This document shows, one piece after another, positions 1,439-50,073 of a stretch of 64,000 nucleotides of DNA. The notes under the pieces are model-generated. The model ran no database searches. It had not been told where the DNA came from and saw only the letters and a program-made list of their open reading frames with translations. The stretch comes from Escherichia phage FEC19, in the sequence record MH816966; one strand, 5' to 3'. The translations under genes and the position numbers were made by a program. Positions within the stretch are counted from its first letter, which is position 1; every line of letters begins with the position of its first letter.

Positions 1439-1466
1439 AGTATAATACAGGCAAATAAAAAGGCAA
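1439..1466 (-). promoter_or_regulatory. sigma70-like promoter for 1108-1410
   Basis: Minus sense TTGCCT-16-TATACT; -35 lies inside the upstream terminator stem. Confidence 0.4.
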
Positions 1467-1485
1467 GCATTTAGCTCACCTTTTT
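1457..1485 (-). terminator. rho-independent terminator (copy 1 of a duplicated cassette)
   Basis: Minus-strand RNA 5'-AAAAA GGUGAGC UAAAU GCUUGCC UUUUU-3'; the stem uses G-U wobbles that pair only in the minus-sense transcript. Confidence 0.5.
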
Positions 1486-2976: not shown

Positions 2977-3005
2977 AGTATAAGTATTGATAAAAGAAAA
3001 GGCAA
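2977..3005 (-). promoter_or_regulatory. sigma70-like promoter for 2627-2944
   Basis: Minus sense TTGCCT-17-TATACT; duplicate of the 1439-1466 arrangement. Confidence 0.4.
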
Positions 3006-3024
3006 GCATTTAGCTCACCTTTTT
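2996..3024 (-). terminator. rho-independent terminator (copy 2 of the duplicated cassette)
   Basis: Same 30-bp sequence AAAAGGCAAGCATTTAGCTCACCTTTTTGA as at 1459-1488. Confidence 0.5.
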
Positions 3025-10272: not shown

Positions 10273-10375
10273 CAATATTTACCATTTAGTTCACAATTTC
10301 GATTTACTTTGCTTTATACTATATCTGCAATTATACTATCAGAAAATATTTCCGCACTAACAAAGGTCGCCTGAA

Positions 10376-10702
10376 ATGAACGAAAAAGATACGAAGCAAC
10401 GCGAACGTGCAACACACGTCGGCATCGTTGAGTCCTTCCTTAATACAAGACTGAATTCAAGTCTTACAATTATGCGATTCCTGGGTCAACCAGACAGAAT
10501 CAAATTCATCTTTGCCGCAAATCCGGTATCGCTTTACATCCCTGTTGAATCCATGGCGTACCTGGTGCGCGACGAGCAAGGGTGGAAGATACCAAACACG
10601 ACTGTTTTCTTCAGCCACGTTGACGGTGAGATGTTTGAACGAAAAGAAGATTGCCATTTTATTCCAGTATATCTGGACCTTGAAAGCGTAGTGGAGTTAT
10701 AA
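10376..10702 (+). CDS. hypothetical protein (108 aa)
   Basis: First gene of the plus-strand block; stop overlaps the helicase ATG (TAATG). Confidence 0.45.
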   Translation: MNEKDTKQRERATHVGIVESFLNTRLNSSLTIMRFLGQPDRIKFIFAANPVSLYIPVESMAYLVRDEQGWKIPNTTVFFSHVDGEMFERKEDCHFIPVYLDLESVVEL

Positions 10703-11886
10703 TGAACATTCCAGAATTTAATAATGAGCCAGTGATTCAGTTCAACGCGCAACAGATTGATGCCATCGAAAAGGCCGTTGCATGGTACAAGCGATTGCAG
10801 GACGGTAAAACGACGAAGCGCGTGTTTTTCATCGCTGGCTATGCAGGAACAGGTAAAACCTCTATTGCGCGTGAGATTGTGCGCCGTTGTGTCGGTGAGT
10901 ACGGTGCCATTTATATTGCGCCGACCGGAAAGGCCGCCAGCCGATTGAAGCAGAAAGGGTGTCGTGGCGCGAAGACCCTTCACCAGTTCATCTATAACGT
11001 GCGCGGCGTAAATGACGACAATGAGCCAATATTTTCGAGAAAGTCAAAGCTGGACGAAAAGCCGCATCTTGTAGTCCTTGATGAAGCTTCAATGGTTGGC
11101 GAGTGGGATACAGAGCGCCTTCTTGATCACCGCATCCCTGTGCTGGCATTAGGCGACATTGGACAAGTCCCTCCAGTAAAAGCCGCCGCCTACTTTACTG
11201 AAGATGCCGTTGACGTCCTGTTAACCGAAATCATGCGGCAGGGGAAAGAGTCCAACATAATCCGCGCTTCCTTCTTCGTGCGACAGGGCAACCGACTTCC
11301 TCCGCGTGAATACGATGACGTAAAGGTGTTGGCTGAATCGCCGCGCGTTACCGCGCTGAAGAAATTCATGGGCGAAGATGATCAAATTATTTGTTCATAT
11401 AATAGCACTAAAGATAAATGGAATTCATTATTGCGACAAGTGAGCGGACGTATAACGCCAATGCCAGGAATCGGCGAGAAAGTTATTTGCACATTCAACC
11501 AACACGGGCCAGGATTCTGTAATGGCGAGCAAGGGATTGTTATTAGTTATGAGCCAGTGCCGGACTTTGAAAGGGATGAAGACGAGTCTAATGAAATCAT
11601 GTATGTCAATTTGCGCTCGCTTACCGATGGCAAGGATATAAAGGTTAAGATCAATCCTCTTTCCTTCTCTACTGATCAGGAAGTGCGCAAAGAGGCTCAA
11701 CGCGCTGTTGGAGGTATGGACTATGGCTATGTCATAACGGTGCACAAATCGCAAGGCAGCGAGTGGGACAATGTGTGCGTGCTGGAAGAAATCTTGCGCG
11801 GCGTTCCGTATGCCAAGATGATGTACACAGCCATCACCCGCGCTAAGAAGAATCTGACCGTGTACCGTGATTTGAAAGCGCGTTAA
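10702..11886 (+). CDS. SF1 RecD/Dda-like DNA helicase
   Basis: Walker A GYAGTGKTS, Walker B VVLDEASMV, VHKSQGSEWDNV and AITRAKKNL; GTGGAG RBS. Confidence 0.85.
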   Translation: MNIPEFNNEPVIQFNAQQIDAIEKAVAWYKRLQDGKTTKRVFFIAGYAGTGKTSIAREIVRRCVGEYGAIYIAPTGKAASRLKQKGCRGAKTLHQFIYNVRGVNDDNEPIFSRKSKLDEKPHLVVLDEASMVGEWDTERLLDHRIPVLALGDIGQVPPVKAAAYFTEDAVDVLLTEIMRQGKESNIIRASFFVRQGNRLPPREYDDVKVLAESPRVTALKKFMGEDDQIICSYNSTKDKWNSLLRQVSGRITPMPGIGEKVICTFNQHGPGFCNGEQGIVISYEPVPDFERDEDESNEIMYVNLRSLTDGKDIKVKINPLSFSTDQEVRKEAQRAVGGMDYGYVITVHKSQGSEWDNVCVLEEILRGVPYAKMMYTAITRAKKNLTVYRDLKAR

Positions 11887-12045
11887 TGTTGACGTAAATT
11901 TACGAAAAATAAAACTGAAAATCAGTTTAATTAAAGTGGCATCGCCGCCAGAGTTTTTAGTTGCTACTGGCGGCGACTGAAGGCATAATTAAGTTATCCC
12001 AAACGGGGAATATAAAATAAACTAATTTATTTAAGGACTGTGAAT

Positions 12046-12885
12046 ATGGCCGAAGCAATCAAAGTATTATCTAAAGAAGAAAAACAAGCAGCTGCAGCAG
12101 AACGTCGTCGCGTGGCTGAAGAAAAACGCCTGGCTAAAAAGAAAGAAGCCGAAGAAAAACGCCAGAAGCGTGAGCAGGAAAAACAAGCCAAGCGTGAAGA
12201 AGCTGCGCTGAAACGCAAGCAGGCTGCTGATGAGAAGGCTCAGAAGCGTGCTGAAGAAGCAGCGAAGAAAGCCAAAGAGCGTGCAGAAAAGGCTGCTGCT
12301 AAGAAAGCAGAGCGTGAAGCCGCTAAAGCAGCAAAAGAAATCGAAAAGGCAAAGGCTAAAGAAGAAGCCAAGCGCCTGAAAGCTGAACAAGCTGCTGCTA
12401 AGAAAGCAGAGCGTGATCAAGCCCGTGCTGCAGCGAAGGCCGAAAAAGAGAAGGCCAAAGAAGAAGCTAAAGCGAAACGCAAGGCAGAGCGTGAAGCTGC
12501 TAAGATTGCGGCTAAAGAAGCTGCAGAAAAGCAGAAAGAACAGCGTAAGAAAGAAGCTGAAGAACGTCGCAAAGCCATCGCAGAACGTAAGGCTGCTAAA
12601 AAGGCAAACGGTCAGCGTCGTGCAAAAGCAACCCACTTCATCTACACTGGCAATGGCCTGAGCCAGCCGCAAGAGCATTCCACCCGTGGACGCGTTCTGG
12701 CGGCGATCAAAGAAGGCGAAGTTGGCGTGGCGCAGTCTATCGATGAGCTGGGCGAAAAAGTTAAAGATCAACTGTTTGGCGCTTCCGTTCGCTCCTACCT
12801 GAGCAAGCTGGAAGAGATGGGCCACATCGAGTTTGTCGATGTTGAATCCAACGAAGATGCCGAAGACGGTGATCAAGCGGAATAA
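12046..12885 (+). CDS. Lys/Glu/Ala-rich low-complexity protein with globular C-terminal domain
   Basis: About 200 aa of KAKEEAK/AEEKR repeats then an ordinary-composition C-terminal domain; ATG at 12046 with AAGGA RBS preferred over the GTG at 12040. Confidence 0.6.
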   Translation: MAEAIKVLSKEEKQAAAAERRRVAEEKRLAKKKEAEEKRQKREQEKQAKREEAALKRKQAADEKAQKRAEEAAKKAKERAEKAAAKKAEREAAKAAKEIEKAKAKEEAKRLKAEQAAAKKAERDQARAAAKAEKEKAKEEAKAKRKAEREAAKIAAKEAAEKQKEQRKKEAEERRKAIAERKAAKKANGQRRAKATHFIYTGNGLSQPQEHSTRGRVLAAIKEGEVGVAQSIDELGEKVKDQLFGASVRSYLSKLEEMGHIEFVDVESNEDAEDGDQAE

Positions 12886-12912
12886 CCTTAGGACGGTTAT
12901 GCAGCGGTAATT

Positions 12913-12939
12913 GACCCACACTTGTTGTGGGTCTTTTTT
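12913..12939 (+). terminator. rho-independent terminator
   Basis: GACCCACA-CTTGT-TGTGGGTC followed by TTTTTT. Confidence 0.7.
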
Positions 12940-12964
12940 CATCTGTACTAAATAAAATGACTTG

Positions 12965-12993
12965 TTGCTGTAAAATAATTTAGCTATTATACT
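12965..12993 (+). promoter_or_regulatory. sigma70-like promoter
   Basis: TTGCTG-17-TATACT upstream of 13018. Confidence 0.45.
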
Positions 12994-13017
12994 TCTCATA
13001 TCACCCACAAAGGACAA

Positions 13018-14014: not shown

Positions 14015-14043
14015 TTGCTTTCTGCTTCAATGGGCGTATACTT
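14015..14043 (+). promoter_or_regulatory. sigma70-like promoter with -10 inside a palindrome loop
   Basis: TTTGCT-17-TATACT; the -10 lies between 11-bp arms CTGCTTCAATG and CATTGAAGCAG. Confidence 0.45.
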
Positions 14044-14078
14044 TAATCATTGAAGCAGAACTCATAGAGGAAACGAAA

Positions 14079-16238: not shown

Positions 16239-16268
16239 TTTACTTGTGCGTTTCGATGAGTTATATTT
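16239..16268 (+). promoter_or_regulatory. sigma70-like promoter with -10 inside a palindrome loop
   Basis: TTTACT-18-TATATT; the -10 lies between 12-bp arms CGTTTCGATGAG and CTCATCGAAACG. Confidence 0.45.
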
Positions 16269-16303
16269 ATCTCATCGAAACGAAGTCCAAAAAGGATAAA
16301 TAA

Positions 16304-34568: not shown

Positions 34569-35293
34569 TCTATCATATTCCCAGTTCTGTTTCCAGGCCC
34601 GTTACCGATATGCCCGTGAGTGGATACATCAATGCCGCCGACCGTTGTGCCAGTCGGAAGCGTTGCCGTCGTTCCTTCTTTGCCTTCTATCCCACCATTG
34701 AATGTTGCTTTTCCATTTACTATCAATTGTTGATCGATAGTGGTTATCGGGGTCTTGACGTTTACTCCAGCAGACGCAGTTATGTTTATTGAGTCATCGC
34801 TTAGTGCAATTCTCACAGCGCCGCTGAGGGATTGAATTACCATTGACCCCGCATCCTCTCCGCTTATGGTGTATTTTCGGAATACATCCGGTATGAACAG
34901 TCCATCAGCGAAAGTTTTTACACGGCCATTGGTAGGCGCGGTCGGCTTCAATTCTTCAAGGAATGTCGACAACTCGCGGTCGCCAGCGAATATCCAGCCC
35001 AAGTCGCCTTCCTTCAAAGGGAAGTTGATCACGAATCCGCCGCCGCCGATTGCCAGTACCGGAATTGACACCAAAGGTTGACGCTCCACTGGCTTATCAT
35101 CAAGACTTACGAAATGAATAACAGGTTTTATGACTGCTAAATTTTTCTTGCGGTCATAAGATATTACTTGCGCAGGAATCATGCCATCAGTGGTATACTT
35201 GCCACGGTCCAGCATTCCCTGAAGCGCGGCAAACATACTTGATTTGTCAGTTTGGTTGGGGCTTGTAAGTTGGGTTAACTTTTCTGCCATCAT
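34565..35293 (-). CDS. baseplate spike/assembly protein (gpV-like)
   Basis: N-terminal OB-like segment then Gly-rich C-terminus ending GHIGNGPGNRTGNMIE; AAGGAG RBS. Confidence 0.5.
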   Translation of the reverse strand: MMAEKLTQLTSPNQTDKSSMFAALQGMLDRGKYTTDGMIPAQVISYDRKKNLAVIKPVIHFVSLDDKPVERQPLVSIPVLAIGGGGFVINFPLKEGDLGWIFAGDRELSTFLEELKPTAPTNGRVKTFADGLFIPDVFRKYTISGEDAGSMVIQSLSGAVRIALSDDSINITASAGVNVKTPITTIDQQLIVNGKATFNGGIEGKEGTTATLPTGTTVGGIDVSTHGHIGNGPGNRTGNMIE

Positions 35294-35350
35294 AGACTCC
35301 TTATATCTGATCAACAAATTATAATCTATAAGGAGTCTATAAGCAATATT

Positions 35351-41569: not shown

Positions 41570-41895
41570 ATTGCAAACTCCGCTTCAGCAGTTTTCTGGA
41601 ATTCAGCCAACTCAGATTCTGACATGTAATATAAATTACAGCCGCCAGAGTTAAAATTCTCATAATCGGGTGTGCTGTCAAAAATAAAATTGCCGTACCC
41701 AATCATGAGATATTTATAAGGCACCATTGGTATACCACCAAAACAACGTACCCCCTGAATCAACAATTCGCCATTGCGGTAAACATCTGCGCACATGTGC
41801 TCAATTGCGGCGAATATGTGCAGCTGCCAATAAGCACCGTCAACGTTAAAGCTGATATTCTGGTTAGGTACGCTGTCAAGTGGTATTTGATACAT
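41566..41895 (-). CDS. hypothetical tail-module protein (109 aa)
   Basis: Coupled ORF. Confidence 0.4.
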   Translation of the reverse strand: MYQIPLDSVPNQNISFNVDGAYWQLHIFAAIEHMCADVYRNGELLIQGVRCFGGIPMVPYKYLMIGYGNFIFDSTPDYENFNSGGCNLYYMSESELAEFQKTAEAEFAI

Positions 41896-42362
41896 TATAA
41901 AATCTCTTGGTTGCTCACGCCAGTTTTGACTACGTTCTCAAACTTAAAGCGATATTGACGTGTTTTTACACGACCCTGAGACTGGATGCCAGGAATTACT
42001 GAGCCAGTCGTCAAAGTGCCCTTGTTCAGTGTAATGACCATGCCAGAAGGGTAGGTCAGAATAAGGGTGATCACGTCTTTCGCAGAGTTCTTTCGCTTGC
42101 CTACACGGTTAGCCGCTGCCAGAACATCTAAGTTCACATCGCTTTCAGAAGTAGGGATGATGTTGACGCCTACTTCAAGAGGGTTGGCACGGTTCCATAC
42201 TACCAGGTCACCGTTCAATCCCATTGCTGCTTCAGAGATTTGAAGATCAGGCGCGTCAATCGGATCAGCATCATCTGCGAAATCAGAAAGAGTTACACCA
42301 TTTGGAAAAGTGTTTGATGCCACTAAACGAATCGAAGCGCCAAAACCGGAAACGTTAATCAT
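41895..42362 (-). CDS. tail tube protein
   Basis: 155 aa immediately downstream of the sheath gene; paralog of 40447-40944. Confidence 0.6.
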   Translation of the reverse strand: MINVSGFGASIRLVASNTFPNGVTLSDFADDADPIDAPDLQISEAAMGLNGDLVVWNRANPLEVGVNIIPTSESDVNLDVLAAANRVGKRKNSAKDVITLILTYPSGMVITLNKGTLTTGSVIPGIQSQGRVKTRQYRFKFENVVKTGVSNQEIL

Positions 42363-42409
42363 TACAGATTCCTCTCAGAGAGATGGCCGCCAGTTACGGC
42401 GGCAATTAT

Positions 42410-43948
42410 TTAGATAAGAACGTCACGACCTTCAACGCGACGCACAGCATCATCTTTAGAGTAGATTAGCGTGTATGTTGCATAGTATTCGGTGCGCCCA
42501 TCGGAAGTGGTTTCAGTATCAAAATCTACAGTCAGCCAGTAACCGATAGTTTCAACCTGCCGCCAAGCAGTGTTGTCACCGGAAGTTTGCGTGATGTATT
42601 GTTTCTGAATCTCAGTCAGCGCCTTGCCAACAGAGATGGTGCCGTTCACTTTTGCGTTATCCACAGCAACCTGAATCATGGCTTGCACAGTCGCTTTCCC
42701 TTCTTCGTTAGCAGGGACGCGACCAAGATTCAAGAACATGCTGAACAGCTGAGATGTAATAGCAGACTTGAGCCACATTTCGTTGGCATAAGTGTTCATA
42801 TCAACTGCTGCTGTTGACCCGCCCATCAATACGCCGCGCTGGAAGAATGCCAAGGTTTGTCCGGCCTGCTGAGTAGCACCGATGTAGTTCGCACGGTTTT
42901 GATCAGCAGTATCTGCGCGAGAGTCAGTTGAAACAGTCACGTTGCGAGTATCAAACTGATAATACATGTAGTTTTGAGTCGCATTCACAGTATTATAGTT
43001 TGTTGCCGCGAGGATTTCAGCAGGTGCTTGGTCGATGTAATCGTTGGCAAGGTTAGTTGCGCGAATCATCATGCCAACGCCTGAGTACCCTTTCAGAGCG
43101 GTGTAGTATGACCCGATATTAGCGAACGAAGTCGAGAATAAATACATGTACATATTATTCTGCGAATGAGTCCACGCTGCCACAGCGGTAATCTCTTCCA
43201 GAGTTCGGTCTGCTCCAGCGAAAAGGAATGAGCCGAAGTTGTTGGAGATTTCCACAGATGCTGCGATTGCTTCTACCGGACTTGAAACGCCCTGGCCTGC
43301 AACGGTTACGGTGCCAGTGGTGGTCCAACCCAACGCTTGAGACGGGTCGGTCGGTTGGCCTGTGACGTTGATAGACAGGTTGCCTGCACCAGCGGTAGAC
43401 GGTGCTGCTTCCAGCGTGAACTGCTGAGTATTAGCATTCCAATACACTTCTGCATCAGCAAGTGCAGGCACCGATGTGCCACCTTCTGCTGCAAATTTAG
43501 TATTGATTGCCGTTTCCAGAAGTTCAGCAACATTTGCCAGACTTGTCGCTGCTGAAAGGTTAATTGCGTCAGTCAGGTAGTCTGTGCCATCGTAAGTGAT
43601 GCTTAAGATAGCGCCAGTGAATGCCTGAAACGTAGCAAGCACTTTAGGCTCAGTATCACCGATTACCATTGCTGGAATCGCAGTCGACACAATACGCGAG
43701 AAGCTGATCGAATCAGGCGAGTTAATTTGCTTGCTGATGAATCCAAAATATAATGCTGCGCGCTTATATTCTTCGGAAGAATAACCGAAATATGATCCAA
43801 CAGCATCAGCCGTTGAAAATTCTGCTACAATGCCAGGCGGCAGAACTGTATTAGAAGTCATGACGCGAAGAGACAGTTTGCGAACTGCAACAGCCGCGCC
43901 TGCTCCGACCCCTGATACAATTTTAATATAACGAGATTGACTGATCAC
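42410..43948 (-). CDS. tail sheath protein
   Basis: 512 aa Ala/Thr/Gly-rich structural protein just upstream of the tube gene. Confidence 0.6.
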   Translation of the reverse strand: MISQSRYIKIVSGVGAGAAVAVRKLSLRVMTSNTVLPPGIVAEFSTADAVGSYFGYSSEEYKRAALYFGFISKQINSPDSISFSRIVSTAIPAMVIGDTEPKVLATFQAFTGAILSITYDGTDYLTDAINLSAATSLANVAELLETAINTKFAAEGGTSVPALADAEVYWNANTQQFTLEAAPSTAGAGNLSINVTGQPTDPSQALGWTTTGTVTVAGQGVSSPVEAIAASVEISNNFGSFLFAGADRTLEEITAVAAWTHSQNNMYMYLFSTSFANIGSYYTALKGYSGVGMMIRATNLANDYIDQAPAEILAATNYNTVNATQNYMYYQFDTRNVTVSTDSRADTADQNRANYIGATQQAGQTLAFFQRGVLMGGSTAAVDMNTYANEMWLKSAITSQLFSMFLNLGRVPANEEGKATVQAMIQVAVDNAKVNGTISVGKALTEIQKQYITQTSGDNTAWRQVETIGYWLTVDFDTETTSDGRTEYYATYTLIYSKDDAVRRVEGRDVLI

Positions 43949-49744: not shown

Positions 49745-50030
49745 ATAGCCGCGCCTTAATTAGTGTGATACGGATGATACGGATAAAATGAGGCGTATTT
49801 TTATCCGTATCGGTGTATAAGCCGCGCTATCACTGGTGTGCTACGGATGATACGGATGATACGGATACTTTTCATATATAAGAGTTTATAAAAAAAATAA
49901 AATTAAATTAGATATATAATTTTAAATTAATTTATTTGAATTCCTATAAAGTATCGCGGCAACGCGTATCATCCGTATCATCCGTAAGATTCTTTTGAAA
50001 ACAACTACTTACTTGATACGGATGATACGT
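49745..50030. repeat. iteron-like 9-bp repeat array flanking an AT-rich core
   Basis: GATACGGAT units, direct at 49767-49784, 49843-49868 and 50015-50029 and inverted at 49803-49811 and 49967-49987, around an 80-bp core of over 80% A+T (49869-49950). Confidence 0.7.
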
Positions 50031-50073
50031 CATTATACGCGTAAAATCCTGCGGCAATCCATTGCCAGGCGAT

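What the first reader, a model, noticed from the sequence alone, without database searches (positions are those of the whole stretch)
11942..11976. Perfect 10-bp inverted repeat without a U-tract between the helicase and the KAE-rich gene
TCGCCGCCAG-N15-CTGGCGGCGA is a GC-rich perfect palindrome not followed by T residues, so it is unlikely to be a simple intrinsic terminator. It may be a protein-binding site or an RNA processing or stability hairpin.
Basis: seen in the sequence. Interest (0 to 1): 0.35.

Follow-up and report, generated by a model that had tools for sequence, protein, structure and literature searches.

The report
Stem-loop wrapped around a phage promoter
This is a real GC-rich hairpin in a Wifcevirus coliphage whose loop holds the -35 box of the next gene's promoter; it is most likely an ordinary stem-loop/promoter junction acting on transcripts that arrive from the upstream helicase operon, not a new kind of element.

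Summary
The palindrome TCGCCGCCAG-N15-CTGGCGGCGA is at 11942-11976, as described. The window is a Wifcevirus, a PB1-like E. coli myovirus. The palindrome is unlikely to be chance. Perfect inverted repeats of 10 bp or more occur 7 times against 1.55 expected, and 6 of the 7 lie in the roughly 11% of the window that is non-coding.

The right arm forms the first 10 nt of the spacer. This promoter is conserved in position and sequence across four phage genera. The palindrome sequence is confined to Wifcevirus, and most other genera carry different hairpins at or just upstream of the same promoter.

Among 20 Wifcevirus genomes the arms vary at a near-synonymous rate (5 of 20 sites). The remaining 139 nt of the spacer are almost invariant. 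Pairing on the + strand is mostly kept, but covariation is not significant.

The best reading (about 0.45) is an RNA stem-loop on helicase-operon read-through transcripts. It would be the attenuator or 3'-stabiliser half of a composite stem-loop/promoter cassette, like the PeSLs of T4-type phages. A sequence-specific operator is unlikely. Interest is low.

The parts
11942..11951 (+). Left arm TCGCCGCCAG. It lies immediately upstream of the T-run and the -35 box, about -54 to -45 relative to the predicted start site.
   Evidence: Read. Three of its 10 sites are polymorphic among 20 Wifcevirus genomes: C11943T, C11946T and G11951T.
11952..11966 (+). 15-nt loop AGTTTTTAGTTGCTA. Its first 3 nt (11952-11954) pair with 11963-11965, which leaves an 8-nt apical loop and a bulged A at 11966. 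Its last 6 nt are the -35 hexamer.
   Evidence: Fold. None of the 15 sites is polymorphic in 20 genomes.
11967..11976 (+). Right arm CTGGCGGCGA, which forms the first 10 nt of the 17-nt promoter spacer.
   Evidence: Read. Two of its 10 sites are polymorphic: G11973A in Eco4M-7, and G11975A in Bas99, where it restores a U-A pair.
11961..11989 (+). Sigma70-type promoter of the KAE-rich gene: TTGCTA (11961-11966), N17, CATAAT (11984-11989). The predicted start site is near 11996, so transcripts from this promoter contain neither arm.
   Evidence: Found by the scan. The same -35/N17/-10 sits 70-83 nt after the helicase stop codon in Kyle, PA1, MTx, MyoSmar, TropicalSun, L011, L012, L013 and L021. 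It belongs to a set of about 11 TTGCYT-N16-18-TATAAT-like sites lying upstream of genes in the window.
11860..11941 (+). Invariant stretch upstream of the hairpin. It covers the helicase 3' end and stop codon, a promoter-like TTGAAA-N17-TAAATT (11872-11900), the palindrome CGTAAATTTACG (11893-11904), the A/T hairpin AAACTGA-AAA-TCAGTTT (11912-11928) and AATTAAAGTG (11929-11938).
   Evidence: It is the longest invariant run (83 nt, 11860-11942) in the 2.3-kb alignment of 20 genomes. AATTAAAGTG is identical in Kyle. The 11912-11928 hairpin sits where other genera carry their large hairpin.
11997..12048 (+). Predicted 5' leader of the KAE-rich gene. It has a small hairpin at 11997-12009, an A/T inverted repeat at 12015-12032, a Shine-Dalgarno AAGGA at 12033-12037 and the ATG at 12046.
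   Evidence: The start codon matches the one annotated in WFH, WFC and Mansfield.
10702..11886 (+). Dda/RecD-like helicase gene. Its operon is probably driven by the promoter at 10309-10337. Read-through from this operon is the only predicted source of RNA that contains both arms.
12046..12885 (+). KAE-rich gene, annotated as 'TolA' in some relatives and assigned to phrog_4765 (unknown function). It has its own canonical terminator at 12913-12933.
   Evidence: The protein scored highly in mass spectrometry of vB_Eco4M-7 preparations (PMC7048862).

Best explanation
The palindrome encodes an RNA stem-loop of 13 pairs (about -24 kcal/mol). It forms only on transcripts that read through from the helicase operon.

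It is the stem-loop half of a composite stem-loop/sigma70-promoter junction. The arms sit in the two sequence-unconstrained slots on either side of the -35 box, just upstream of it and in the spacer. The constrained T-run and -35 hexamer are left in the loop.

On read-through RNA the hairpin would attenuate or pause upstream transcription, or act as a 3'-exonuclease barrier, or both. It would thereby define and stabilise the 3' end of the helicase message. It would also insulate the promoter of the abundantly made KAE-rich protein. Transcripts started at that promoter (near 11996) lack the hairpin entirely.

Shown here: the structure, the promoter overlap, the promoter's conservation, the pattern of variation, and the presence of other stem-loop/promoter composites in the same genome. 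Inferred: that the RNA form is the active one, and that its effect is attenuation or 3'-end protection.
For: 1. The hairpin is very stable and forms in context, with pair probabilities of 0.88-0.998.

2. The -35 box lies in the loop and the right arm in the spacer of a promoter kept at the same distance from the helicase stop codon in Wifcevirus, Kylevirus, Myosmarvirus and metagenomic relatives.

3. In 8 of 10 lineages the segment from the stop codon to the -10 box folds significantly better than shuffled sequence (z = -2.5 to -8.3). The hairpins differ in sequence and lie just upstream of or across the promoter. Position and structure are conserved while sequence is not.

4. Within Wifcevirus the arms vary at 5 of 20 sites. 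That is indistinguishable from helicase third codon positions (151/395, p = 0.34). The rest of the spacer varies at 2 of 139 sites (Fisher p = 3.5e-4). The identity of the arm bases is therefore not under selection.

5. Six of the seven haplotypes keep all 13 pairs on the + strand (-19 to -24 kcal/mol). The changes run C-G to U.G to U-A at one pair. G11951T simply swaps G-C plus a bulged A for U-A plus a bulged C. The - strand is always weaker.

6. The same genome holds other stem-loop/promoter composites. Perfect inverted repeats bracket the -10 box at 14020, 16249 and 35292. Two identical 27-nt cassettes at 1458-1484 and 2997-3023 have the -35 box inside the 3' arm of a hairpin followed by a T-run.

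7. There is a precedent. PeSL cassettes of T4-type phages RB49 and phi1 combine a sigma70 promoter with a stem-loop that can overlap the -35 or -10 box. One such stem-loop cut reporter expression about as much as rrnB T1 (PMC2839356).

8. In the related phage 14-1 and five other Pseudomonas phages, only 84 of 268 mapped transcript 3' ends were canonical intrinsic terminators, yet most fold stably (PMC10914365).
Against: There is no U-tract, so efficient intrinsic termination is not expected. Where the phage clearly needs termination it uses canonical terminators.

Covariation is not statistically supported. No pair has changes on both sides, and 351 of 500 shuffles score at least as high.

Eco4M-7 carries a C.A mismatch that drops the energy to -12 kcal/mol.

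All five arm polymorphisms are G/C<->A/T changes. Sites 11943 and 11951 fail the four-gamete test. Both features fit mutational hot spots or decay as well as they fit structural selection.

The closest outgroups, Kyle and PA1, lack this hairpin, and the PA1 segment is not significantly structured.

No transcript-end data exist for any Wifcevirus in the searchable literature.
Confidence: 0.45

Rival explanations
1. The palindrome has no dedicated function. It is a quasi-palindrome sitting in the two unconstrained slots of a promoter (upstream of the -35 box and in the spacer). It was created or kept near-perfect by template-switch mutation and is now drifting.
For: The arms evolve at the synonymous rate while everything around them is frozen. 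The perfect form is unique to this isolate. All changes are G/C<->A/T and appear recurrent, as shown by the four-gamete failure. Covariation is not significant. Kyle and PA1 lack the palindrome. Divergence within the genus is too small (pairwise identity at least 93.7%) for retention of pairing to prove selection. That quasi-palindromes are templated-mutation hot spots is my own knowledge.
Against: A 10-bp, 80% G+C complementary pair in a 27% G+C spacer is very improbable by chance. Perfect inverted repeats are about 35-fold enriched in non-coding DNA of this genome. Several of them bracket promoter boxes in the same way. Other genera have their own hairpins at the same junction.
Confidence: 0.2
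2. The palindrome is a DNA operator. A dimeric phage or host regulator binds the two 10-bp half-sites that flank the -35 box and represses or activates the promoter of the KAE-rich gene.
For: The sequence has perfect dyad symmetry centred about 2 bp upstream of the -35 hexamer. The KAE-rich gene is a self-contained unit with its own promoter and terminator.
Against: The half-sites are the least conserved part of the spacer. Their centre-to-centre spacing is 25 bp, which is atypical for a dimeric HTH operator (my own knowledge). No other non-coding copy of the half-site exists. The excess of TCGCCGCCAG words comes from Leu-Ala-Ala codons in minus-strand genes. Kyle keeps the promoter and an almost identical C-terminal segment of the KAE-rich protein (GASVRSYLSKLEEMGH) but has no palindrome, which argues against autoregulation through it. 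The four promoter-bracketing inverted repeats all differ in sequence, so each would need its own protein.
Confidence: 0.12
3. The hairpin is part of a longer leader or small RNA that starts at an upstream promoter (TTGAAA-N17-TAAATT, 11872-11900, start near 11907). In this reading the GC stem-loop is a processing or stability element, or the 3' stem of a roughly 70-nt RNA.
For: The 83 nt from 11860 to 11942 are the most conserved stretch in the 2.3-kb alignment. A promoter-like site scoring 9 of 12 lies inside that stretch. The whole spacer folds with z = -4.2 to -4.8. Invariant single-stranded parts combined with variable but paired stems is the usual pattern for a structured RNA.
Against: There is no Rfam match. 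There is no U-tail to end a small RNA. The putative upstream promoter is weak and is not recognisably conserved in Kyle. The conserved block can equally be read as UP-element or activator DNA for the downstream promoter.
Confidence: 0.12
4. The palindrome acts as a single-stranded DNA hairpin used in replication, for example as a priming signal for the RepB-type primase encoded 1.7 kb away, in the manner of RSF1010 ssiA/ssiB.
For: The primase at 9133-10215 matches PF16793 (RepB_primase) at E = 1.6e-36. The hairpin is stable as DNA on both strands. It lies within the replication gene module.
Against: A much better origin-like region exists elsewhere, with 9-bp iteron-like repeats flanking a roughly 100-bp A/T block at 49760-50050. 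The hairpin sequence is not conserved in genera that share the primase. Its placement tracks promoter boxes rather than replication features.
Confidence: 0.04

Closest known systems
PeSL (promoter-early stem-loop) cassettes of T4-type phages RB49, phi1, PST and nt-1 (Arbiol et al. 2010, PMC2839356; Comeau et al. 2014, PMC4122927)
   Same: PeSLs are intergenic composites. They run from the upstream stop codon in an A/T-rich stretch, through a sigma70-like promoter and a stable stem-loop, to the SD and ATG. The stem-loop may overlap the -35 box, overlap the -10 box, or lie between them. It is interpreted, and in one case shown, to be a terminator or attenuator for upstream transcription. The window has this layout here, at 14020, 16249 and 35292, and as two identical copies at 1458-1484 and 2997-3023.
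   Different: PeSLs are sequence-conserved, multi-copy motifs of about 100 bp. They are tied to ORFan shuffling in the hyperplastic regions of T4-like phages. This stem is single-copy and lies at a junction that is syntenic across four genera of PB1-like phages. No recombination role is indicated.
Canonical Rho-independent (intrinsic) terminator
   Same: It has a G+C-rich stem-loop downstream of a stop codon, on the sense strand.
   Different: It has no U-tract. Only 1 U occurs in the first 8 nt after the stem. The loop is large (15 nt, or 8 nt with the inner pairs). ARNold- and TransTerm-based annotations of relatives do not call it a terminator.
Hairpins that form only in read-through transcripts because a promoter lies inside them: T4 genes e, soc, 49 and I-TevI (review PMC3014915)
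   Same: A promoter is nested in a hairpin, so transcripts from that promoter lack the structure while upstream-initiated transcripts have it.
   Different: In T4 the 3' arm sequesters the SD or AUG. Here the right arm ends 57 nt upstream of the SD, so no translational block is expected. The inverted repeat at 35292-35340 does fit the T4 pattern; this one does not.
3'-stabilising stem-loops without U-tracts, such as REP elements and the processed 3' ends of Rho-terminated mRNAs in E. coli (my own knowledge, not checked in papers here)
   Same: It is a stable hairpin in a 3' UTR with no U-tract, which is the expected form of a 3'-to-5' exonuclease barrier.
   Different: It is not a repeated family. 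It has no similarity to any sequence in 5,426 complete E. coli genomes.
Dyad-symmetric operator overlapping a promoter
   Same: It is a perfect inverted repeat centred on a promoter element.
   Different: The half-sites are variable rather than conserved. The spacing is 25 bp. There is only one site and no identified cognate protein.

Membership tests
Intrinsic (Rho-independent) terminator | G+C-rich stem-loop on the transcribed strand | tested here: met
   The stem has 13 pairs, 9 of them G-C, at -24 kcal/mol.
Intrinsic (Rho-independent) terminator | U-tract of about 7-9 nt immediately 3' of the stem | tested here: not met
   The 3' flank is CUGAAGGCAUAAUUA. The consensus scan does not call it, whereas it does call 12913-12933.
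Intrinsic (Rho-independent) terminator | Transcript 3' ends map at the site | not testable with these tools
   No Wifcevirus transcriptome was found in the paper library.
PeSL-type promoter/stem-loop cassette | Sigma70-like promoter with an A/T-rich upstream region, lying between an upstream stop codon and a downstream SD/ATG | tested here: met
   The promoter is TTGCTA-N17-CATAAT. The spacer is 27% G+C outside the arms. The promoter is conserved across genera.
PeSL-type promoter/stem-loop cassette | Stable stem-loop overlapping or adjoining the -35 or -10 box | tested here: met
   The -35 box lies in the loop and the right arm lies in the spacer.
PeSL-type promoter/stem-loop cassette | Multi-copy motif conserved in sequence across many intergenic regions | tested here: not met
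   The arms are single-copy in non-coding DNA. Only the promoter consensus recurs. One other cassette is repeated twice, at 1458 and 2997.
PeSL-type promoter/stem-loop cassette | Association with ORFan insertion, deletion or recombination | tested here: not met
   The order helicase, spacer, KAE-rich gene, mutase-like gene is syntenic from Wifcevirus to Myosmarvirus and Luteibacter phage Pluto.
PeSL-type promoter/stem-loop cassette | Stem-loop reduces downstream expression of upstream-initiated transcripts | not testable with these tools
   This needs a reporter assay or transcript mapping.
Operator of a dimeric DNA-binding regulator | Half-site sequence conserved among close relatives | tested here: not met
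   5 of 20 arm sites are polymorphic against 2 of 139 in the rest of the spacer, p = 3.5e-4.
Operator of a dimeric DNA-binding regulator | Cognate protein binds the site | not testable with these tools
   This needs EMSA or footprinting. There is indirect evidence against autoregulation by the KAE-rich protein, because Kyle lacks the site.
T4 gene e-type translational hairpin | 3' arm sequesters the SD or start codon of the downstream gene | tested here: not met
   The right arm ends at 11976, while the SD is at 12033-12037.
Structured RNA family in Rfam | Match to a curated covariance model | tested here: not met
   Only two chance-level lncRNA matches were found (E = 0.5 and 4.2), far below the gathering scores.
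Evolutionarily supported RNA helix | Compensatory changes on both sides, above the shuffled control | tested here: inconclusive
   94.5% of cells are paired and the series CG/UG/UA is seen at one pair. However, no pair changes on both sides and 351 of 500 shuffles score as high.

The most novel reading that the evidence does not exclude
Promoter-embedded hairpins may be a general device of PB1-like (Lindbergviridae) phages. There are four perfect ones plus a duplicated terminator/promoter cassette in this genome, and different hairpins at the same junction in other genera. The device would mark where an RNA originated. Transcripts arriving from upstream fold and are stopped, trimmed or silenced. 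Transcripts born at the embedded promoter do not fold. Each gene would thus have a built-in switch between early read-through and autonomous expression. Together with the invariant 83 nt upstream, this site could even encode a small regulatory RNA or leader.
Probability: 0.15. Interest if true: 0.45.

Novelty: new member of a known kind. Interest (0 to 1): 0.22.

Why it matters
On its own it matters little. It refines the annotation of one intergenic region in Wifcevirus phages, which are candidates for E. coli O157 biocontrol and are reported to replicate unusually fast.

It identifies a conserved promoter for the abundant KAE-rich protein. It also shows that this phage group, like T4-type phages, packs stem-loops into and around its sigma70 promoters.

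That is useful for anyone engineering these genomes. A synthetic vB_Eco4M-7 assembly system already exists (PMC11074155, title seen). Edits near gene junctions would hit overlapping promoter and hairpin signals.

Tried and rejected
1. Repeat family. TCGCCGCCAG with at most 1 mismatch occurs 18 times against 3.7 expected. The other copies have unrelated flanks and lie in ORFs, mostly as CTG-GCG-GCG on minus-strand genes. This reflects coding sequence (Leu-Ala-Ala codons), not a repeated element.

2. Known RNA family. Rfam at a permissive threshold gives only noise.

3. Host-derived element such as REP. There is no match in 5,426 complete E. coli genomes.

4. More relatives for covariation. The formal covariation test on 7 haplotypes was not significant.

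5. Autoregulation by the KAE-rich protein. The protein has no Pfam domain and no PDB relative, and belongs to phrog_4765 of unknown function. Kyle keeps its C-terminal segment and the promoter but not the palindrome. I rejected this as unlikely.

6. Origin or priming site. I considered this because of the RepB-type primase. I downgraded it because an iteron-like, A/T-rich region lies at 49760-50050.

7. Terminator on the minus strand. The 3' flank there is UGCCACUUUAAUUAAAC, there is no reason for antisense transcription, and the minus-strand hairpin is weaker in every haplotype.

8. Other perfect inverted repeats as a source of extra substitutions. Their arms are almost invariant in the relatives compared (4-10, depending on the repeat), so they gave no added power.

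9. Literature. I found no transcript mapping for any Wifcevirus. The data for the Pbunavirus 14-1 are not transferable, because synteny downstream of the helicase is lost there.

Full report
**Observation.** The sequence at 11942-11976 reads TCGCCGCCAG AGTTTTTAGTTGCTA CTGGCGGCGA. The two 10-nt arms are perfectly complementary and the loop is 15 nt. The next bases are CTGAAGGCATAATTAAG, with no T-run. The site lies in a 159-nt spacer between a Dda/RecD-like helicase gene (10702-11886) and a Lys/Ala/Glu-rich gene whose annotated start is the ATG at 12046. Folded as RNA, the helix continues inward for three more pairs across a bulged A, giving 13 pairs at about -24 kcal/mol. In a 400-nt read-through context every pair has a probability of 0.88-0.998. 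As DNA either strand gives about -13.4 kcal/mol, with z below -5.

**Is it more than chance?** Perfect inverted repeats with arms of at least 10 bp and loops of 3-30 nt number 7 in the window. 100 Markov simulations gave 1.55 +/- 1.13, with a maximum of 5. Six of the seven lie between ORFs, which make up roughly 11% of the window.

**What the window is.** The region is 94.5-98.5% identical to 27 GenBank records of Wifcevirus, for example WFC, WFH, ECML-117, vB_Eco4M-7 and Bas98-101. These are E. coli/Shigella myoviruses distantly related to the Pseudomonas PB1-like phages. The window reads minus-strand genes to 10215, then plus-strand replication and nucleotide-metabolism genes from 10376 to about 27900, then minus-strand structural genes.

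**The missed context: a promoter inside the hairpin.** A sigma70-type site, TTGCTA (11961-11966), N17, CATAAT (11984-11989), overlaps the palindrome. The -35 hexamer forms the last six bases of the loop. The right arm forms the first ten bases of the spacer.

This promoter is credible for two reasons:
- It belongs to about 11 TTGCYT-N16-18-TATAAT-like sites that sit just upstream of genes in the correct orientation.
- The same -35/N17/-10 arrangement is found 70-83 nt after the helicase stop codon in Pantoea phages Kyle and PA1, Serratia phages MTx and MyoSmar, Erwinia phage TropicalSun and four metagenomic relatives. All of them keep the gene order helicase, spacer, KAE-rich gene.

The predicted start site, near 11996, lies downstream of both arms. 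Only RNA that reads through from the helicase operon (probable promoter at 10309-10337) can therefore contain the hairpin. The KAE-rich gene also has its own canonical terminator at 12913-12933, which is the one annotated in WFH, WFC and Mansfield. Its protein scored highly in mass spectrometry of vB_Eco4M-7 preparations (PMC7048862).

**Comparative evidence within the genus.** In 20 Wifcevirus genomes the spacer is more conserved than the flanking genes:
- 166 of 1185 helicase sites are polymorphic, and 151 of those are third codon positions.
- In the spacer, 0 of 55 sites upstream of the stem, 0 of 15 loop sites and 2 of 69 downstream sites are polymorphic.
- 5 of the 20 arm sites are polymorphic.

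The arms differ from the rest of the spacer (Fisher p = 3.5e-4). They do not differ from third codon positions (p = 0.34). The 83 nt at 11860-11942, which end at the first base of the left arm, form the longest invariant run in the 2.3-kb alignment.

The arm changes are as follows:
- C11943T occurs in 17 of 19 relatives and gives a U.G wobble.
- C11946T occurs in EC150 and gives a U.G wobble.
- G11975A occurs in Bas99 and turns the U.G pair into U-A.
- G11951T occurs in 10 of 19 relatives. It replaces G-C plus a bulged A with U-A plus a bulged C.
- G11973A occurs in Eco4M-7 and gives a C.A mismatch.

Six of the seven haplotypes keep 13 pairs on the + strand (-19 to -24 kcal/mol). The minus-strand hairpin is weaker in every case. 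This pattern fits a + strand helix whose base identity is free to vary.

It is not proof, however. The formal pair count finds no changes on both sides of a pair, and 351 of 500 shuffles score as high. All five changes are G/C<->A/T. Sites 11943 and 11951 occur in all four combinations, so recurrent mutation at a quasi-palindrome, or simple decay, is a real alternative. The perfect 10/10 form exists only in this isolate.

**Comparative evidence between genera.** The palindrome sequence is absent outside Wifcevirus. In 8 of 10 lineages, though, the segment from the helicase stop codon to the -10 box folds better than shuffled sequence, with z from -2.5 to -8.3. PA1 and Pluto are the exceptions.

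The structures are large hairpins that end 6-12 nt before the -35 box (MTx, MyoSmar, L011, L012, L021). Some are accompanied by a second inverted repeat inside the promoter. In L013 a 9-bp repeat has its right arm in the spacer next to the -10 box. A hairpin at this junction is therefore positionally conserved, with unrelated sequences. None of these hairpins has a U-tract either; they are followed by A-rich, UP-element-like linkers.

**The same design elsewhere in this genome.** Three other perfect inverted repeats bracket a promoter box:
- 14020-14060 has its left arm in the spacer, TATACT in the loop and its right arm at +1.
- 16249-16282 belongs to the promoter TTTACT-N17-TATATT and has the -10 box in the loop.
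- 35340-35292 on the minus strand belongs to TTGCTT-N17-TATAAT. It has the -10 box in the loop, and its right arm covers the SD up to one base before the ATG.

Two identical 27-nt cassettes at 1458-1484 and 2997-3023 place the -35 box TTGCCT inside the 3' arm of a hairpin whose T-run is the promoter spacer. Four of 11 promoter segments contain a hairpin of -18 kcal/mol or better, compared with 7.5% of random 79-nt segments. By contrast the phage's canonical terminators are short G+C stems with tetraloops and T-runs.

**Mechanism I commit to.** The palindrome is the stem-loop half of a composite stem-loop/promoter junction. Its arms occupy the unconstrained slots around the -35 box and the constrained bases sit in the loop. 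On helicase-operon read-through RNA it folds, and then either attenuates or pauses transcription, or blocks 3' exonucleases. This would define the 3' end of the upstream message and insulate the promoter of the KAE-rich gene. Transcripts from that promoter are unaffected.

The closest described system is the PeSL cassette of T4-type phages. In PeSLs the stem-loop may overlap the -35 box, overlap the -10 box or lie between them, and one stem-loop reduced reporter expression about as much as rrnB T1 (PMC2839356; PMC4122927). This site works like a PeSL but is not a member of that family. It is single-copy and it lies at a syntenic rather than a hyperplastic junction.

In the related phage 14-1 and five other Pseudomonas phages, only 84 of 268 mapped 3' ends were canonical intrinsic terminators, although most fold stably (PMC10914365). 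Hairpin-associated ends without a U-tract are therefore common in phages. I put this explanation at about 0.45. The structure, overlap and conservation pattern are shown; the RNA-level activity is inferred.

**Rivals.**
- A functionless quasi-palindrome drifting in free promoter positions (0.20).
- A DNA operator (0.12). This is disfavoured by the variable half-sites, the 25-bp spacing, the absence of any other site and the absence of the palindrome in Kyle despite a conserved downstream protein.
- Part of a leader or small RNA from a possible upstream promoter at 11872-11900 (0.12). The invariant 83 nt motivate this reading, but there is no Rfam match and no terminating U-tail.
- A single-stranded DNA priming hairpin for the RepB-type primase (0.04). 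A far more origin-like iteron and A/T region lies at 49760-50050.

**Verdict.** The feature is real and was read correctly as 'not a simple terminator'. It is best understood as an ordinary promoter-embedded stem-loop. It is a new member of a known kind and of low interest on its own. The genome-wide habit of wrapping perfect hairpins around promoter boxes is the more interesting by-product, and it can be tested directly with transcript-end mapping.

Noticed in passing
window 49760-50050: This is an iteron-like array. It holds at least six copies, in both orientations, of GATACGGATGATAC (9-bp period TACGGATGA). A 22-bp perfect inverted repeat (49842-49863 / 49965-49986) flanks a roughly 100-bp, almost pure A/T block. 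The motif occurs nowhere else in the window (6 matches against 0.29 expected). It is a candidate replication origin or multi-site protein-binding region, upstream of the promoter at 49708-49680.
   Followed up: partly
window 35292-35340 (minus strand): A perfect 14-bp inverted repeat surrounds the -10 box of TTGCTT-N17-TATAAT. The left arm lies in the spacer. The right arm, TATAAGGAGTCTAT, covers the Shine-Dalgarno sequence and ends one base before the ATG of the baseplate-spike gene. This is the architecture of T4 genes e, soc, 49 and I-TevI, in which the ribosome site is hidden only in read-through transcripts (PMC3014915).
   Followed up: partly
window 14020-14060 and 16249-16282: Two more perfect inverted repeats (13 bp and 12 bp) have the left arm in a promoter spacer, the -10 box in the loop and the right arm at the start site. 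Neither has a T-run. Their arms are nearly invariant among the relatives compared (10 and 5). A similar motif, GTTTCGATGAG...CTCATCGAAAC, appears around a promoter in metagenomic relative L021.
   Followed up: partly
window 1458-1484 and 2997-3023 (minus strand): Two identical 27-nt cassettes read AAAAGGTGAGCTAAATGCTTGCCTTTT. Each is a hairpin whose 3' arm contains the -35 box TTGCCT and whose T-run serves as the promoter spacer. These are true terminator/promoter composites, repeated in the early region in a PeSL-like manner.
   Followed up: partly
window 11860-11942: This is the longest invariant run (83 nt) in the 20-genome alignment of 10700-13000. It covers the helicase 3' end, a promoter-like TTGAAA-N17-TAAATT, the palindrome CGTAAATTTACG (the core ATTTACG is also kept in Kyle, PA1, MTx and MyoSmar), an A/T hairpin and AATTAAAGTG. 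The reason for such strong constraint is unexplained.
   Followed up: partly
window 42386-42403 (minus-strand gene gap between ORFs 42410-43948 and 41895-42362): A short G+C hairpin, GCCGCC-N6-GGCGGC, lies in a 47-nt gap between two large minus-strand ORFs (identities not checked). It has no clear T-run and may be another stem-loop without a U-tract.
   Followed up: no
L011 3656-3692, L012 3660-3711, L021 3653-3697, L038 2663-2707 (relatives): The metagenomic relatives L011, L012 and L021 share a large hairpin just upstream of the promoter of the KAE-rich gene. Its apex is conserved (TCGGAA - A/T loop - TTTCG) and it has a G.U wobble at the same position, which pairs only on the + strand. The basal stems differ in sequence. 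MTx (L038) and MyoSmar carry a large hairpin at the same position without the full apical motif. This may be a conserved structured element in its own right.
   Followed up: partly
window 12046-12885: The KAE-rich 'TolA' protein belongs to phrog_4765 (unknown function) and has no Pfam or PDB relative. Its C-terminal 90 residues or so are well conserved with Kyle and look like a small globular domain behind a long charged repeat. It scored highly in published mass spectrometry of vB_Eco4M-7 and is annotated as a structural protein in TropicalSun.
   Followed up: partly
window-wide: The 10-mer TCGCCGCCAG (at most 1 mismatch) is 5-fold over-represented, at 18 against 3.7 expected. This is because CTG-GCG-GCG (Leu-Ala-Ala) is frequent in the minus-strand structural genes. 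It can give a false impression of a repeat family.
   Followed up: yes
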